64,000 bases of DNA, from positions 25,992 to 89,991 of the forward strand of contig MEVX01000008.1 of NCBI GenBank assembly GCA_001773135.1. The letters run 5' to 3'. Position 1 is the first letter of the stretch; the number at the start of each line of letters is the position of its first letter. This document shows positions 51,266-57,521 of this stretch, piece after piece. The DNA comes from a candidate division WWE3 bacterium RIFOXYB1_FULL_43_24 (lineage in GTDB: Bacteria > Patescibacteriota > WWE3 > UBA101185 > UBA10185). The notes below the pieces were generated by a model. It was not told where the DNA came from, searched no databases, and saw only the letters and a list, made by a program, of their open reading frames with translations. A program made the position numbers and the translations under genes.

Positions 51266-51294
51266 TTGCACTCGAAAGCTCTGAGTGCTAATAT
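51266..51294 (+). promoter_or_regulatory. Sigma70-like promoter for the Clp ATPase gene: -35 TTGCAC (51266-51271), 17-bp spacer, -10 TAATAT (51289-51294). The predicted TSS is about 1 nt before the ATG, so the mRNA would be leaderless or nearly so.
   Basis: Read directly. The track ORF starts at TTG 51266, but the zinc-finger N-terminus MVLCHRCG begins at ATG 51302. Confidence 0.4.
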
Positions 51295-51301
51295 CTTACT
51301 C

Positions 51302-53413
51302 ATGGTACTCTGCCACAGATGCGGACAGCGTCCCGCAAAATACCCAATAAATCAGATAGTAGACGGTAAGCAAGTCTACATGGCTCTCTGCGAAGTCTGC
51401 TACGAGGAAGTTGTAAAAGAGACGTCTCAATCCGCTTCAAAACTAGATAAATACGGCCGCGATCTTACCCAATTAGCACGTGAGGGTAAACTTGACCCTG
51501 TTATAGGGAGAAAAAACGAGATCGAACGTGTTATTCACATCCTTTCAAGAAGGACAAAGAATAACCCCGTGTTAATCGGAGACCCCGGCGTGGGTAAAAC
51601 AGCTATAGTTGAGGGTTTGGCACAAAAAATCGTTAACGGACAGGTTCCGGAGCCTTTAAGGGGTAAGCGCGTGTTTATGCTGGATTTAGCTTCAATAATC
51701 GCAGGAACTTCCCATAGAGGAATGTTCGAAGGTCGCCTGAAAGACATAATCACTGAGGTCATCTCCGCGAGCGGTCAAATAATCTTATTTGTAGACGAGC
51801 TGCATACGGTTATCGGAGCAGGAAGTGCAGAAGGATCGATGGATGCCGCAAATATCCTTAAACCGGCCCTGGCAAGAGGTGAATTACAAATGGTAGGTGC
51901 TACAACAATCGACGAGTACAGAAAATATGTTGAAAGGGATGCCGCACTTGAACGCCGCTTCCAGCCTATTATGGTTAACGAACCTACCGCGGAAGATACC
52001 GTCGAAATTCTCAGAGGACTGAGGGAGCGCTACGAATCTCACCACAATGTGAAAATCACAGATGATGCTATTACAGCTGCTGTTAAAATGAGCGACCGTT
52101 ATGTTTCTGATCGCTTTTTACCCGATAAGGCAATTGATTTGATAGACGAAGCCTGCGCGATGGTCCGCTTGTCCCAGGTGAAAGAGCCGGAGAATTTAAG
52201 AACCGTCGAAGAAGAAATTTCAAAATTAAAAAATGATGCGAGGAAAAATAAATTAAGTGACGAAGATAAGGAAACGTTGAAGAAAAAGACAGAAGAGCTT
52301 GAAAAAATAAAATCAGAGCTCGTTGAGATCTGGACAAAAACCAAACTTGAAGAAATTCCCGATGTTACCGAAGACGCTGTTATAAAAGTTGTTTCACGCG
52401 CAACCGGAATACCGCTTGAGAAATTAAATGTTGTAGAACGTGAAAGGCTCTTAAACCTTGAGCGTACTATTAAGAACAGAGTTGTCGGTCAGGACAAGGC
52501 AATCGGTGTTTTGTCGGAAGCGATAAGAAGAGCCAGAGCAGGTTTGAAAGACCCGAAAAGACCTATCGGATCGTTTTTGTTTCTTGGTCCGACAGGTGTA
52601 GGTAAAACCGAATTAGCCAAAACTTTAGCCGAGGCTTTATATGGCGACGAAGATATGATCGTCCGTTTGGACATGAGTGAATATATGGAAAAGCATTCGG
52701 TAAGTAAATTGATAGGGGCGCCCCCCGGATACGTCGGGTATGAACAGGGTGGCCAGTTAACCGACATTGTGAGAAGAAAGCCCTTTTCCGTAATATTGCT
52801 GGATGAAATAGAGAAAGCTCACCCCGATACATTTAACGCTTTGTTGCAGATAATGGAAGACGGGCGTCTAACTGACAGCAAGGGAAGAACGGTTGATTTT
52901 AAAAATACTATACTGATTCTTACTTCAAATGTGGGTTCTGATCTCTTAAGAAGAAAAGACATAGGCTTTGTCGAAGATAAGAAAAAGTCCCACGATGAGG
53001 TAGCAATAGCCGCGGACAGAAGAATATTCAGCATATTAAAAGACTCTTTCAAACCGGAGTTTTTAAATAGGATTGATGAAATAGTCTTATTTACAAGTCT
53101 CGGAAAAGAGGATATTAAGGAGATAACCCTGAGGATGTTGGATAAAACCAGGAAAATGTTGGCCGAGCAACAGATCACCCTTGAAGTTTCGGATAAGGCG
53201 GTAGATTATCTTGTTGAGAACGGATACAGCGAGGAGTACGGGGCAAGACCTCTTAGAAGATTAATTCAGACTGAGGTGGAGAATGCAATTTCAAGCAAAA
53301 TAATAGGAGCTGAAACGTCGGAAGGAGACCTGGTAGAAATCGGCGTATTTCCGGGGGGTGGCTTATCGGTGGAGGTTAAAAAACCCGCGAAGGTGACCTC
53401 GAAAAAGAAATAA
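51302..53413 (+). CDS. Clp/Hsp100 ATPase with two AAA+ modules and an N-terminal zinc ribbon (ClpE-like)
   Basis: N-terminus MVLCHRCG...LCEVCY has the C-x2-C...C-x2-C pattern, as in ClpE. Walker A GDPGVGKT and GPTGVGKT. Short coiled-coil middle domain. No N-terminal Clp_N repeats. Confidence 0.8.
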
Positions 53414-54099: not shown

Positions 54100-54450
54100 C
54101 TAGTAGTAGTTCCTGGCCCGGTAAGACGTTCCACCCAATGCCGTTTGGATGTCAAGAAAAACTACCTGTTCGATTTTTGTCCAATCCCTCCCCCGTTTTT
54201 TAGAAAGACCTACGTATTCGTGAGTTAAATAGATAAAATCGAGTTCTTCGATCTTGTTTAACATAGTGAGGAGGGATGCTCCGATTGGCCCGATCTCATC
54301 ATTAAGTTTTTCATTTGTATCGGCACCGATCGGCAGTGTATAGATTTTGTGAGGAGCAATAGAGATCTGTTGGTCAGTGTAGTATTCTCTGTATTGGACA
54401 TTTGCCGAATCTTTCCTTACCCTGATTTCGATAGTACCTGGTTTGGCCAT
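54100..54450 (-). CDS. Hypothetical protein (116 aa) with a strong SD; apparently a monocistronic unit flanked by terminators
   Basis: SD AGGAGA 5 nt upstream of ATG 54450. No motif recognised. Confidence 0.45.
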   Translation of the reverse strand: MAKPGTIEIRVRKDSANVQYREYYTDQQISIAPHKIYTLPIGADTNEKLNDEIGPIGASLLTMLNKIEELDFIYLTHEYVGLSKKRGRDWTKIEQVVFLDIQTALGGTSYRARNYY

Positions 54451-54532: not shown

Positions 54533-54569
54533 AAAAAAAGAGGAGACTGGTTTTTGGCCGAATCTCCTC
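54533..54569 (-). terminator. Minus-strand rho-independent terminator: stem GAGGAGA/TCTCCTC, 16-nt loop, U7
   Basis: Read directly. It lies downstream of the stop of the secreted-protein gene 54607-55236 (-). Confidence 0.45.
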
Positions 54570-54606: not shown

Positions 54607-55236
54607 TTAATGCTGTGTAAAAAATCCCAAACCAGGATCTGCGTAGATTGTTACGCCATGAGCGCCTACTGCAGGATCGTTGTACACCTCTTCAAGCACA
54701 TCATAGGATCCCCAAAGGGGGCTATCAGGACCAAAGTATCCAATCTTGACGAAGTACGTGTAGTGTTGCAGACCGTTGGCGTCGATGTAATCACCGTTGA
54801 CGTGGTTTGTTAACCAGCCGGCACTGATATTGGTAGGAACGCCATTTATAAGACCTCTATCAAGCTTATGGTCGCCGTTGCAATCAACGTTTGACAACCA
54901 CTCGTCCGACCATTTCATCTGCAACTTATCGTCGACAAAGTCGCCGGTTTGTCCCCAGTACATGCCGTCCAACTTCCTGTCAGCTGAGTCGTAGGTACCG
55001 TCGAAAAGATGCGCCTGGTAGTTGTATCCGTAAATATCGAAACCGGTTTCAAGGGGATTCCCCGCAGAATCTAAAATTGTTCCGCTCTGGATTTTAGCGC
55101 AATCGCTGGTTGACCACGCAGTTTCTGCCCCGGTTACCGGGTCAAACCCAACAGGCTTGTCTGCCAAGACAGGTGAGACGATCGTTAAGACCACCACGAG
55201 TGCAAGTATTACCGAAAACAGTCTCTTCGCTTTCAT
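54607..55236 (-). CDS. Secreted hypothetical protein (signal peptide)
   Basis: N-terminal signal peptide MKAKRLFSVILALVVVLTIVSPVLA. Mature part is rich in Gly, Asp, Tyr and Trp. No motif recognised. Confidence 0.5.
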   Translation of the reverse strand: MKAKRLFSVILALVVVLTIVSPVLADKPVGFDPVTGAETAWSTSDCAKIQSGTILDSAGNPLETGFDIYGYNYQAHLFDGTYDSADRKLDGMYWGQTGDFVDDKLQMKWSDEWLSNVDCNGDHKLDRGLINGVPTNISAGWLTNHVNGDYIDANGLQHYTYFVKIGYFGPDSPLWGSYDVLEEVYNDPAVGAHGVTIYADPGLGFFTQH

Positions 55237-55438
55237 TTTCTCTCCGTTTCAACTAAAAGAATTGGTGAATCTGCGACCAAGCAGACGCATACTATATCAC
55301 TGTTATGTATATTTGGAAAGGCGGGTAGAGACGATTTCGTAAGGTGTGAGATGTGAGGTAACTAAACTAGTTGAACAATAAAAAAGGGTAACCCCGAGAC
55401 CAAAAATTTCTGGTTTCAAGATTACCCTTCGCGAGCAG

Positions 55439-56194
55439 TTAATTTCTTTTATTCAGGAGGTATTTTTTCAGACCCAAATAAAAGATTAACACACACAAAA
55501 TACCCATACTCAAACCGGCGAGAATTTCTCCCCCATAGAATCTGGTAACGGTTACCGCAAGATTTTCTCCATAGCCACTTGTGGGGACAGGTGGGGGTGT
55601 GCGGGTTGGTTGAGGGGGCCCCGGCGTTGCAGTAGCTGGCGGTACCCAAGTATTTGTAGGTGTCGGCGGTACTTCGGTTGGCGGTACTTCGGTTGGCGGG
55701 ATTTCTGTCGGCGGTACCTCTGTCGGTGTTGTTGTAGGTGTCTCCGTGGGTGTCGATGTTGGTGTTGCCGTGGGCGTAGATGTAGGTGTCTCCGTGGGCG
55801 TCGATGTAGGTGTTGCCGTGGGCGTAGATGTAGGTGTGCTGGTTTTCGTTGGAGTAGGTTCCGGTGTCTTTAACACGTCGTAAGGAACCAACTCTTGTAC
55901 TGTGTCTCCGCACCAGAAGCGATTTACGCTGGGTATATAACTGCACACAGTTCCTACCGTGGGATTTGGCAACGCGGGATTGTTGCAGTACGCGTTTACA
56001 ACGTAGCCACCTGCTCCACCGAGCTCAAACCTAAATTGCGAGCCCGACACTCCCGGTACCGGACCATAGCCCAGATCGTCAATTACGCGCCAACCCTCTT
56101 TCGGTAGATCAAAACCTGCGCTAGCAGCGGTGTTCAACATAGCCGCCAGAAAAACAAAAACAAATAGTATAGTCACAATTTTGAGCTTATTCAT
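55439..56194 (-). CDS. Secreted protein with a Cys-containing N-domain, a long Pro/Thr-rich linker (TPTSTPTATPTSTPTETP... then EVPPTEIPPTEVPP) and a C-terminal TM plus basic tail
   Basis: Signal peptide MNKLKIVTILFVFVFLAAMLNTAASA. C-terminus ILAGLSMGILCVLIFYLGLKKYLLNKRN is a hydrophobic helix plus KR tail with no LPXTG. Confidence 0.55.
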   Translation of the reverse strand: MNKLKIVTILFVFVFLAAMLNTAASAGFDLPKEGWRVIDDLGYGPVPGVSGSQFRFELGGAGGYVVNAYCNNPALPNPTVGTVCSYIPSVNRFWCGDTVQELVPYDVLKTPEPTPTKTSTPTSTPTATPTSTPTETPTSTPTATPTSTPTETPTTTPTEVPPTEIPPTEVPPTEVPPTPTNTWVPPATATPGPPQPTRTPPPVPTSGYGENLAVTVTRFYGGEILAGLSMGILCVLIFYLGLKKYLLNKRN

Positions 56195-57052
56195 TTACTG
56201 CCTCCTATATTCAAGGATTACAATTAGGCGCTCGCTCGAATACCACGGTTCGTGGAATATATCCCTGGCGCTGGTAATAATGACGATACTTCTGTCATTC
56301 AGGGAGACGCCGATGAGTTGGGATAGTTCTGTCGGATCCATAGACCTTACAGAGCTGAGATTTTCGTATTTGATTATCCCGGCTCCGATCAACAGTAATT
56401 CAACAGAAACATCCTTTTGTTTTAATACGACCGGAGATTTTTTCAGCTCTTCGATTGCCGTGCTCATCCGGCTTTCCGAAAGATCTGTTAGTGCGTCGTC
56501 ACACCCTCCCCCTTCAAAATGACGTCTGAGGTACTCACCTTCAAGTTCGGTCCAACCGGACTTTCCGCGGTACTTAAAACATCCTGAGTGAGGATTTACA
56601 GTGACATTGCCCCAATCATCTGCCCAGACCCCTGATTTGTAAATTCCCGGCTTATAATCGTCAGGACCGTTTACAGGGATAACCGGGGTGAATGAGACGG
56701 AAAAGGGATCACCCGGAGTTGGGAAAAACCATATTTCTATCGTATCAAAACTGTCGAATCTTATTCCCTTAAAATCATACGGATTTACTTGTAAGGTCGG
56801 TTCCGGTGTCGTTTCAGGCGCGGCGACCGTCATAGATAGCACAGGCTGGTCCACAGACACGGGAGTACTCCGGAAAGGTTGAAATGGAGTTGGTGTTGCT
56901 GTGTAATCAGGTGCTTTAGCCGATACGAACTGTTCTCTTGACATGGGTGCCCCGCGCAATAATTCCTGAGCAATGGGTGCCATCACCTTAAAGTCAAGGA
57001 ACAACAGCAGGACAAAAATAAAGAGCAAGACTTCCATAACAGTTTTTTTCAT
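56195..57052 (-). CDS. Secreted hypothetical protein (signal peptide); start taken at the Met of MKKTV. The track ORF extends to 57097.
   Basis: MKKTVMEVLLFIFVLLLFLDFKVMA is signal-like. The start codon of 55439-56194 abuts this gene's stop, so the three co-directional secreted-protein genes are probably co-transcribed. Confidence 0.5.
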   Translation of the reverse strand: MKKTVMEVLLFIFVLLLFLDFKVMAPIAQELLRGAPMSREQFVSAKAPDYTATPTPFQPFRSTPVSVDQPVLSMTVAAPETTPEPTLQVNPYDFKGIRFDSFDTIEIWFFPTPGDPFSVSFTPVIPVNGPDDYKPGIYKSGVWADDWGNVTVNPHSGCFKYRGKSGWTELEGEYLRRHFEGGGCDDALTDLSESRMSTAIEELKKSPVVLKQKDVSVELLLIGAGIIKYENLSSVRSMDPTELSQLIGVSLNDRSIVIITSARDIFHEPWYSSERLIVILEYRRQ

Positions 57053-57305
57053 CGACCCTCCTAGGTCATTGATAATAGTCAAATTTTCAAAGTACACACG
57101 TTCCCTTTGTTTAGAGTGTGAATACCCGATAGTTTAGCACGAAACTATAGGTTTGGAAAATTGGTAAGGAGCTAAAAAAATCCCGTTCGTTGCCTTTGTC
57201 CAAGCATAGAACGGGGAGAAATTTACTTGGGGACCGGTACTTTAAATACATTTTCCCCGAAAAGTGTCACGGCGACGATTTTTGAGTATTTTTCCCATCT
57301 CCCTC

Positions 57306-57521
57306 CTAGAAAACATAAGAGATAATCGCTGTCCAGCAATATATTGCCCCAATAAAAACTATAGAAGATGCTACAATAAGCAGTACGATCGAAAATGATG
57401 AGAGCTGGTGTTTTTTTACCTCTTTCCTCGCTAAAACGAAACCGCGGATTATAAAAAATATCGTCACACAAACACCCGACACAACATAGATTTGGGATAA
57501 TATTTCTCCAAGCGTTTCCAT
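57306..57521 (-). CDS. Possible small 2-TM membrane protein (71 aa) at the head of the secreted-protein operon
   Basis: ORF only. Confidence 0.3.
   Translation of the reverse strand: METLGEILSQIYVVSGVCVTIFFIIRGFVLARKEVKKHQLSSFSIVLLIVASSIVFIGAIYCWTAIISYVF

What the first reader, a model, noticed from the sequence alone, without database searches (positions are those of the whole stretch)
54607..57521. Operon of three signal-peptide proteins, including a Pro/Thr-linker protein with a non-LPXTG C-terminal membrane anchor
Three consecutive minus-strand genes, possibly preceded by a small 2-TM ORF, encode secreted proteins with no recognisable domains and end at a rho-independent terminator.

The middle protein has a Cys-containing globular head, a low-complexity TPTSTPTATP/EVPPTE stalk of about 90 aa, and the C-terminus TRFYGGE-ILAGLSMGILCVLIFYLGL-KKYLLNKRN. 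This tripartite sorting-signal architecture has a motif-like segment, a hydrophobic helix and a basic tail, but no LPXTG or PEP motif. It could be a substrate of a non-canonical sortase, exosortase or archaeosortase-like system, or simply a C-terminally anchored surface stalk protein.

Such surface proteins are candidates for host or partner attachment in small-genome, possibly episymbiotic, bacteria.
Basis: partly seen in the sequence, partly recalled or inferred. Interest (0 to 1): 0.5.

Follow-up and report, generated by a model that had tools for sequence, protein, structure and literature searches.

The report
Hidden sortase-like enzyme beside its surface-protein substrate
Two of the three "unknown secreted proteins" form a conserved pair: a very divergent sortase-fold enzyme, with serine where sortases have their catalytic cysteine, and a stalked surface protein carrying an overlooked LPXTG-like signal (VPTSG) in a candidate-phylum WWE3 bacterium.

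Summary
The genes are real and syntenic in WWE3 (Katanobacteria, CPR) genomes, but they are not one operon. Hairpin plus U-tract terminators separate four units: [2-TM ORF], [A-B], [C] and [116-aa ORF].

A has an N-terminal membrane anchor, an invariant His155 and Arg275. It has Ser261 where sortases have the TLxTC cysteine; about half of the wider family keeps Cys there ([TF]CGW).

B (56194..55439) is translationally coupled to A (TAAATG). B does carry a conserved LPXTG-like motif, [VL][PA]TSG, 16 residues before the TM helix and basic tail.

A-B adjacency held in every locus with enough DNA, in both gene orders, including a non-CPR-like clade with Cys-type A and P-x-M/P-GG-x-GN motifs.

C belongs to a separate orphan secreted family of more than 2000 members.

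Best reading: a dedicated sortase-like enzyme and its substrate. Whether the Ser enzyme is active is open.

The parts
56195..57052 (-). Gene A, 285 aa. It has an N-terminal membrane-anchor helix (aa ~2-32), a Pro/Thr linker containing TATPTPFQP (aa ~33-88) and a sortase-fold domain (aa ~90-285).
56588..56590 (-). Codon of His155 in the HSGC motif, the putative catalytic histidine.
   Evidence: It is the only residue invariant in all 36 family members. A global hhalign, not significant on its own, pairs it with SrtA His120.
56270..56272 (-). Codon AGC of Ser261 in IVIITS, at the position of the sortase TLxTC cysteine.
   Evidence: hhalign pairs IVIITS with SrtA LTLITC. The column is Ser in 17 family members and Cys in 19. 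Ser261 is one of only 6 positions invariant among the 17 Ser-type proteins, whose pairwise identity is 22-83%.
56228..56230 (-). Codon of Arg275 in ERLIVIL on the last strand, the putative counterpart of the sortase catalytic Arg.
   Evidence: Arg is present in 31 of 36 family members. The hhalign register is within one residue of SrtA Arg197.
55439..56194 (-). Gene B, 251 aa. It has a signal peptide (aa 1-26), a head domain with three invariant Cys (aa 27-108), a Pro/Thr stalk (aa ~109-200) and a C-terminal sorting signal.
   Evidence: TAAATG overlap with the A stop. Alignments. Tandem repeats. B is adjacent to an A-family gene in every locus with enough DNA.
55574..55588 (-). V203-P-T-S-G207, the LPXTG-like pentapeptide of B.
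   Evidence: T-S-G is invariant. The variants are VPTSG, LPTSG and VATSG across 7 distinct B homologues of 45-71% identity. It is the only such motif in the 64-kb window.
55442..55525 (-). Hydrophobic helix ILAGLSMGILCVLIFYLGL (aa 224-242) and basic tail KKYLLNKRN (aa 243-251) of B.
   Evidence: Direct reading of the sequence. The same layout is kept in all B homologues.
55377..55430 (-). Intrinsic-terminator-like hairpin plus U-tract ending the A-B unit.
   Evidence: dG -27.2 kcal/mol, z -5.46, 0 of 200 shuffles fold as well.
54607..55236 (-). Gene C, 209 aa, a secreted protein of a large orphan family. It is a separate transcription unit and not part of the A-B module.
   Evidence: It has its own RBS, a promoter-like site at 55319-55291 and its own hairpin plus U-tract at about 54533-54569. 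It has more than 2000 homologues at 55-65% identity in CPR, Chloroflexi and Actinomycetota. No Pfam or PDB hit. It is absent from L007 and L011, which keep A-B.
57306..57521 (-). 71-aa ORF with two TM helices, conserved upstream of A in WWE3 genomes only.
   Evidence: Homologous 67-72-aa ORFs are found in L001, L004, L007, L010 and L011. It is followed by a hairpin plus U-tract at about 57174-57215. It is absent from the more distant A-B loci.

Best explanation
A and B form a dedicated sortase-like enzyme and substrate pair.

B is exported by Sec and loses its signal peptide. Its C-terminal helix and basic tail hold it in the membrane, with the [VL][PA]TSG motif about 16 residues outside.

A is a membrane-anchored protein with a sortase-fold ectodomain on a Pro/Thr linker. 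It recognises that motif and, by analogy with sortases, cleaves within it (probably after Ser206). It then transfers the head-plus-stalk to an amine acceptor, most likely a peptidoglycan precursor. The small Cys-containing head is thereby displayed on a ~90-residue stalk.

In the WWE3 clade the nucleophile position is Ser261 instead of Cys. I take it to be an active serine variant working with His155 and Arg275.

Shown here:
- the fold of A
- the gene coupling
- the conserved adjacency of A and B
- the conserved motif in B
- the conserved His, Ser and Arg in A

Inferred:
- that cleavage happens at all
- the scissile bond
- the nucleophile
- the acceptor

For: Architecture: N-terminal anchor, linker and ectodomain, as in sortases.

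Active-site order: His, then nucleophile, then Arg, as in sortases. hhalign pairs IVIITS with LTLITC and H155 with H120. Nineteen family members keep a Cys at that column, as [TF]CGW.

Constraint in the Ser clade: H155 and S261 are among only 6 invariant positions in 17 proteins that have diverged to 22% identity.

Coupling: the A stop overlaps the B start, and a terminator follows B.

Adjacency:
- Searches seeded with A found a B-head homologue next door in all WWE3 loci and in L012, L021 and L023.
- A search seeded only with the B head found an A-family gene next door in 11 of 11 WWE3 loci with upstream DNA, and in 9 of 9 loci of a distant clade with the opposite gene order.

Signal: T-S-G is invariant in B. 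The distant clade has RPKMGGEGN or RPAPGGSGN. CPR relatives have PPITGGEG, APATGAGG or PPNTAGSG. All lie about 10-17 residues before a TM helix and a K/R tail.
Against: - The defining catalytic Cys is absent from the window's protein. In canonical sortases Cys-to-Ser is used as an inactive form, for example PDB 5yfk, the C232S mutant in the Foldseek list. That the Cys is essential in SrtA is from my own knowledge.
- No sequence method links A to sortases. hhalign gave E 0.025-0.06, and Pfam and NCBIfam gave nothing.
- I could not inspect model coordinates, so the spatial arrangement of H155, S261, R275 and C158 is untested.
- The motif-to-helix spacer (16 aa) is longer than in classic sorting signals, and position 4 is Ser, not Thr.
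- Canonical sortases are reported elsewhere in WWE3 genomes (PMC3812714). They might process B.
- The distant ETCGW clade appears to lack the last-strand Arg.
Confidence: 0.6

Rival explanations
1. A is a pseudo-sortase. Having lost the catalytic Cys, it no longer cleaves. Instead it binds the [VL][PA]TSG segment of B non-covalently, acting as a chaperone, retention factor or positioning factor. B stays anchored by its own TM helix.
For: Ser replaces the nucleophile Cys in all WWE3 proteins. Cys-to-Ser sortase mutants are used as inactive forms (5yfk). The long 16-residue spacer and the complete TM helix plus basic tail would allow a stable membrane anchor.
Against: A dead enzyme should relax its former active site. 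Yet H155, S261 and E173 are among only 6 invariant positions across 17 Ser-type proteins at a median 32% identity, and R275 is kept in most. The substrate motif T-S-G also remains invariant.
Confidence: 0.2
2. A is active, but the nucleophile has moved. Cys158, three residues after His155 in HSGC, does the chemistry in the Ser clade.
For: Cys at His+3 is invariant in all 17 Ser-type proteins. It is absent from 18 of the 19 Cys-type proteins, so the two are almost mutually exclusive. C158 is one of the 6 invariant positions.
Against: Cys158 always co-occurs with a second Cys near position 184 (GGxC), in 18 of 18 cases. P0012 and P0015 have this pair as well as the canonical Cys. That pattern fits a structural disulfide in a secreted domain better than a free thiol. 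It also leaves the invariance of Ser261 unexplained.
Confidence: 0.08
3. B is processed by a canonical housekeeping sortase encoded elsewhere in the genome. A has an unrelated or accessory role.
For: Sortases and LPXTG proteins are reported in the complete WWE3 RAAC2 genome (PMC3812714). One B homologue has LPTSG, which is close to LPXTG.
Against: No canonical TLxTC protein is present in the 64-kb window. The strict A-B adjacency across clades, in both gene orders and with motifs that change along with the clade, points to a dedicated pairing. Ser, Met or Pro at position 4 is atypical for housekeeping sortases (own knowledge).
Confidence: 0.07
4. This is simply a C-terminally TM-anchored stalk protein next to unrelated secreted proteins, with no processing system.
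For: No sequence-level domain hits. Within the 64-kb window, no other protein shares the C-terminal signature.
Against: The sortase fold of the translationally coupled neighbour, the conserved pentapeptide, and the invariable co-occurrence of the two families.
Confidence: 0.05

Closest known systems
Class B sortases with dedicated, adjacently encoded substrates, for example Clostridium perfringens SrtB (PDB 5b23) and S. aureus SrtB-IsdC with NPQTN (the SrtB-IsdC pairing is from own knowledge)
   Same: - N-terminal membrane anchor.
- His, nucleophile and Arg occur in the same order.
- Extra helices between the core strands.
- The enzyme gene lies next to a substrate that carries a non-LPXTG variant motif, a TM helix and a basic tail.
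   Different: - Only 10-17% identity, and no Pfam PF04203 or NCBIfam hit.
- Ser replaces the catalytic Cys in the window's protein.
- The family has its own HSG and LEAExLR signatures.
- The motif is [VL][PA]TSG, set 16 residues from the helix.
Class E sortases of Actinobacteria (SrtE1 5cuw, T. fusca SrtE 9iok), which use LAXTG signals
   Different: They have a canonical TLxTC Cys and are detectable by Pfam. They are housekeeping enzymes with many substrates rather than a one-to-one gene pair.
Pilin-specific class C sortases
   Different: They polymerise pilins through a pilin-motif lysine. B shows no sign of pilin domains, and A has no recognisable lid. Polymerisation is untested.
Exosortase/PEP-CTERM, archaeosortase/PGF-CTERM and rhombosortase/GlyGly-CTERM systems
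   Same: A tripartite C-terminal signal: motif, helix and basic cluster.
   Different: Their enzymes are polytopic membrane proteins, not sortase folds. Their motifs abut the helix. No NCBIfam model for any of them hits A, B or the relatives of A and B that were scanned.

Membership tests
Sortase (MEROPS C60 / Pfam PF04203) | Sortase beta-barrel fold | tested here: met
   [not shown]
Sortase (MEROPS C60 / Pfam PF04203) | Catalytic Cys in a TLxTC-type motif at the end of the penultimate strand | tested here: not met
   The window's protein has IVIITS (Ser261) at the column that hhalign pairs with LTLITC. Nineteen of 36 family members do have Cys there.
Sortase (MEROPS C60 / Pfam PF04203) | Catalytic His following a core strand, upstream of the nucleophile | tested here: met
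   His155 is the only invariant residue in the family. It follows strand 150-153 and pairs with SrtA His120 in a global hhalign. Residue-level 3D superposition could not be done.
Sortase (MEROPS C60 / Pfam PF04203) | Conserved Arg on the last strand | tested here: inconclusive
   Arg275 (ERLIV) is present in 31 of 36 members. It aligns within one residue of SrtA Arg197. It is apparently missing in the ETCGW clade. Geometry was not checked.
Sortase (MEROPS C60 / Pfam PF04203) | Detectable sequence homology to the family profile | tested here: not met
   No Pfam or NCBIfam hit at E<=1 for any of 30 members. PDB profile search found no sortase. hhalign against SrtA gave E 0.025-0.06.
Sortase (MEROPS C60 / Pfam PF04203) | Extracytoplasmic catalytic domain on an N-terminal membrane anchor | tested here: met
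   A hydrophobic N-terminal helix (aa 2-32) followed by a disordered Pro/Thr linker in the model.
Sortase (MEROPS C60 / Pfam PF04203) | Cleavage and transpeptidation of a sorting signal | not testable with these tools
   This needs biochemistry or mass spectrometry.
Sortase substrate (cell-wall sorting signal) | LPXTG-type pentapeptide, then a hydrophobic helix, then a positively charged tail at the C-terminus | tested here: met
   B has VPTSG (LPTSG or VATSG in homologues), a 16-aa spacer, a 19-aa helix and KKYLLNKRN. Deviations: Ser at position 4 and a long spacer. No NCBIfam sorting-signal model hits it.
Exosortase / archaeosortase / rhombosortase substrates | PEP, PGF or GlyGly motif immediately preceding the helix, plus a cognate polytopic enzyme | tested here: not met
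   B has no such motif and no NCBIfam hit. The conserved neighbour is a sortase fold, not a polytopic membrane protein. The rest of the genome was not searched.

The most novel reading that the evidence does not exclude
The WWE3-type A proteins are natural serine-nucleophile sortases. In this reading an ancient, sequence-invisible sortase family switched its catalytic Cys to Ser (TGC to AGC) yet still sorts its partner protein through a [VL]PTSG signal. This would be the first sortase-fold transpeptidase that works through an acyl-ester intermediate. It would also define a new sorting signal class (P-x-x-G-G/Y-x-G) shared by CPR and a non-CPR-like clade of unidentified taxonomy.
Probability: 0.35. 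Interest if true: 0.75.

Novelty: new variant of a known kind. Interest (0 to 1): 0.6.

Why it matters
CPR bacteria such as WWE3 are thought to live attached to other cells, yet most of their surface proteins are unannotated.

This work turns two "hypothetical proteins" into a testable enzyme-substrate module. It defines a sortase-fold family that standard annotation (Pfam, NCBIfam) cannot see, and a matching non-LPXTG sorting motif that LPXTG pattern scans miss.

Because of this, sortase-anchored surface proteins in CPR genomes, and in the non-CPR-like relatives found here, are probably under-counted.

The natural Cys/Ser dichotomy at the nucleophile position, within one family that keeps the same partner protein, offers a clean system for two questions: whether a sortase scaffold can run on serine, and how pseudo-enzymes arise. 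If the serine form is active, it could also interest protein engineers as an oxidation-insensitive ligase.

Tried and rejected
- Sequence-level annotation found nothing useful. Pfam, NCBIfam and PDB phmmer/hmmsearch were run on A, B, C, the 2-TM ORF and the 116-aa ORF, and on the 30-member A alignment and the 22-member C alignment.
- The first AF2 run, with only 7 WWE3 sequences, gave mean pLDDT 55 and was not used. It became usable only after the profile search added remote homologues.
- The afdb50 fold library was unavailable.
I used it only to see which columns pair. hhalign against the CPR 'LTIQTC' putative sortases gave no meaningful alignment.
- I first read the family as having a relocated catalytic Cys (HSGC versus TC). 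I downgraded this after seeing that Cys158 always co-occurs with Cys~184, which looks like a disulfide.
- The consensus terminator scanner missed the minus-strand terminators because their stems and loops exceed its limits. Folding showed them.
- A regex scan of the window found no canonical TLxTC sortase and no second protein with the motif.
A 7-sequence alignment worked.
- Literature searches found no description of this family.
- I noted a thioester-domain-like reading of the B head ([YF]C and hydrophobic-Q-x-hydrophobic-hydrophobic motifs).
Full report
**What is there**

On the minus strand between 57521 and 54100 lie five ORFs:
- a 71-aa ORF with two TM helices (57521..57306)
- A (285 aa from ATG 57052, preceded by GGAGGG; the ORF list shows a GTG at 57097, but homologues start at the MKK)
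- B (56194..55439, 251 aa)
- C (55236..54607, 209 aa)
- a 116-aa ORF (54450..54100)

The stop codon of A overlaps the start of B (TAAATG), so the two are translationally coupled. Folding the intergenic RNA shows hairpins followed by U-tracts at four places:

| Position | dG (kcal/mol) | z-score |
|---|---|---|
| after B | -27.2 | -5.5 (0 of 200 shuffles as good) |
| after C | -16.2 | -2.0 |
| after the 116-aa ORF | -19.9 | -4.3 |
| after the 2-TM ORF | -20.4 | -2.4 |

The simple scanner missed these because of its loop and stem limits. So the region is not one three-gene operon. It is a row of small units, of which A-B is one.

**Organism and conservation**

A has only seven close homologues among 5.8 billion clustered proteins; the two that carry a source name are from candidate division WWE3.

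The order CdaA, KsgA-like methyltransferase, 2-TM ORF, A, B, (a ~101-aa ORF absent from this window), C, 116-aa ORF, L19, Clp ATPase is kept in WWE3 contigs. These include the complete genome CP006914.1. The genes are therefore real. L007 and L011 keep A-B but lack C.

**A is a sortase-fold protein**

Nothing is found by sequence: Pfam, NCBIfam and PDB all give no hit.

A profile search over 1.84 billion representatives found 29 relatives down to about 20% identity. With the resulting 30-sequence alignment, AlphaFold2 gave mean pLDDT 86.7, and about 96 for residues 90-285. The 7-sequence alignment had given only 55.

- Foldseek returned only sortases in its top 50 (E 5e-5 to 1e-3, probability 1.0).

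The architecture is that of sortases: an N-terminal helix, a Pro/Thr linker and an ectodomain.

Profile-profile alignment to S. aureus SrtA is not significant by itself. It does place H155 on His120, IVIITS on LTLITC, and E274/R275 on Arg197/Lys198.

**The active site**

Across 36 family members His155 is the only invariant residue. S156, G157, E173 and R176 are nearly invariant, and Arg275 is present in 31 of 36.

At the nucleophile column, 19 proteins have Cys ([TF]CGW or TCAW). Seventeen have Ser (TSG[RW]), and these include every WWE3 protein.

The Ser-type proteins have diverged to 22-83% pairwise identity (median 32%). They share only six invariant positions: H155, G157, C158, E173, L175 and S261. 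That argues for a retained function at the former Cys position rather than decay.

All Ser-type proteins also have Cys158 (HSGC). It always co-occurs with a Cys near position 184, in 18 of 18 cases. P0012 and P0015 carry this pair as well as the canonical Cys. I therefore read C158-C184 as a disulfide, not a relocated nucleophile. I could not inspect coordinates to confirm this.

B has four parts:
- a signal peptide (..TAASA|G)
- an ~80-aa head with invariant G34, W35, C70, C84, C95 and Q100
- a Pro/Thr stalk encoded by tandem DNA repeats
- the C-terminal sequence PPVPTSG-YGENLAVTVTRFYGGE-ILAGLSMGILCVLIFYLGL-KKYLLNKRN

In seven distinct homologues (45-71% identity) T-S-G is invariant, and the pentapeptide reads VPTSG, LPTSG or VATSG.

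This is the LPXTG layout with Ser at position 4 and a 16-residue spacer. It is the only such signal in the 64-kb window, and the window has no canonical TLxTC sortase.

**The pair is conserved far beyond WWE3**

Starting from A, the neighbouring gene is a B-head homologue in three further cases:
- a Patescibacteria MAG (L012)
- next to the Cys-type P0012 (L021)
- next to the Ser-type P0018 (L023)

Starting from the B head alone, a metagenome scan gave 29 loci.
- All 11 WWE3-type loci with upstream DNA have A upstream.
- In a distant clade (GC 42-54%, non-CPR-like gene content) all 9 loci with enough downstream DNA have an A-family gene immediately downstream. These carry HSG and ETCGW, that is, a true Cys.
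- Their B proteins end in RPKMGGEGNL, RPPMGGDGNL, RPAMGGKGNV or RPAPGG[SK]GN, followed by a helix and a K/R tail.

Still more remote CPR relatives of A (FCGW type) lie next to unrelated-headed Pro/Thr stalk proteins. These end in PPITGGEG, APATGAGG or PPNTAGSG plus a helix and a basic tail. The clusters also encode a VirD4/TraG-like ATPase and a second putative sortase with LTIQTC, which scores 76 bits against NF053836, below its cutoff.

The common core of the signal is P-x-x-G-(G/Y)-x-G, about 10-17 residues before the helix.

**Mechanism proposed**

B is secreted and held by its C-terminal helix. A recognises the pentapeptide, cleaves it and transfers B to an amine acceptor, presumably a cell-wall precursor. 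This displays the head on a long stalk.

The fold, coupling, co-occurrence and conservation are shown here. Cleavage, the scissile bond, the nucleophile and the acceptor are inferred.

The main uncertainty is whether the Ser-type enzyme of this window is active. My estimates:
- about 0.35 that it is a serine-nucleophile sortase in the strict sense
- 0.2 that it is a pseudo-sortase that merely binds B
- less than 0.1 for each of the remaining three rivals: a relocated Cys nucleophile, processing by a canonical sortase, and a plain TM anchor with no processing

Canonical sortases exist elsewhere in WWE3 genomes (Kantor et al. 2013, PMC3812714) and remain a possible alternative processor.

**C is something else**

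C has more than 2000 homologues (90%-identity clusters) at 55-65% identity in WWE3, other CPR, Chloroflexi and Actinomycetota. All are unnamed. It has about 48 invariant positions, including GYNYQAH, MKW.D.W..NVDC..D..LDRG and LWG.Y.

It has no Pfam or PDB match. Its genomic contexts differ between lineages. It is a remarkable orphan family in its own right, but it is not part of the A-B module.

**Comparison with the known**

Functionally this looks like a dedicated sortase and substrate pair of the SrtB-IsdC kind. As a family, A fails two membership criteria for sortases, the catalytic Cys and detectable sequence homology. It meets the criteria of fold, topology, His and, for most members, Arg.

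I found no description of this family or its motif in the literature searched. A 2025 survey of Patescibacteria T4SS loci reported detecting no adhesins such as PrgB (PMC12102498).

I classify the finding as a new variant of a known kind, with interest 0.6.

Noticed in passing
window 54607-55236 (-): Protein C belongs to a very large orphan family of ~200-aa secreted proteins. It has more than 2000 clusters at 55-65% identity across WWE3, other CPR, Chloroflexi and Actinomycetota, about 48 invariant residues and no Pfam, NCBIfam or PDB match. It contains a DCNGDxKLD stretch that resembles a calcium-binding loop (own reading, untested).
   Followed up: partly
window 55237-55438; compare L001 7800-8111, L004 6600-6905, L008 5115-5420, L010 7814-8152: Other WWE3 genomes carry a conserved ~101-112-aa cytoplasmic-looking ORF between B and C. 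In this window the B-C spacer is only ~200 bp, and the ORF is absent.
   Followed up: no
window 54100-54450 (-); L004 7880-8227 and 8367-8738; L010 9116-9466 and 9618-9980: The 116-aa ORF downstream of C is conserved in WWE3. In some relatives it is present as two or three diverged tandem paralogues. It has no signal peptide and no family hit.
   Followed up: no
window ~56900-56930 (A residues 51-59); L013 5956-7071: The linker motif TATPTPFQP, just after the N-terminal membrane helix of A, recurs in most A-family members and in unrelated Chloroflexi membrane-anchored proteins (an LCP-like protein by my reading of its sequence, in L013-L016). It may be a common post-anchor linker or a processing or glycosylation site.
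   Followed up: no
L017 633-7137, L018 1449-6736, L019 720-5975: Remote Cys-type relatives of A in CPR contigs sit in a conserved cluster. The order is: a TAT-signal putative sortase (LTIQTC; NF053836-like, below cutoff), a VirD4/TraG-like ATPase, a Pro/Thr stalk protein with PPxTG-like signal, an A-like protein and, in L018, an M23 peptidase. This may be a sortase-anchored adhesin module linked to the Patescibacteria T4SS, for which a published survey detected no adhesins such as PrgB (PMC12102498).
   Followed up: partly
L012 3544-3906: In a Patescibacteria MAG, the gene after B encodes a 120-aa protein with an N-terminal TM helix, a Pro/Thr linker and the same FPVPTSGYGD motif near its C-terminus, but no C-terminal helix. 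It could be a second recognition target or a B fragment.
   Followed up: no
window 55871-56116 (B head, aa 27-108): The B head has an odd number (three) of invariant cysteines plus an invariant Gln100. The local patterns [YFH]-C-x and hydrophobic-Q-x-hydrophobic-hydrophobic are reminiscent of thioester-domain adhesin motifs (from memory). However, the domain is far smaller than known thioester domains, and Pfam shows no hit.
   Followed up: no
window 51266-53413 (+) and L053 4728-7343: A Clp-type AAA+ ATPase lies close to the C gene both in this WWE3 window and in a Chloroflexi contig, where the two genes are convergent neighbours. This may be coincidence.
   Followed up: no
window 57306-57521 (-): The 71-aa 2-TM ORF is conserved upstream of A in WWE3 genomes only. 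It has its own hairpin plus U-tract, so it is probably not co-transcribed with A-B.
   Followed up: partly
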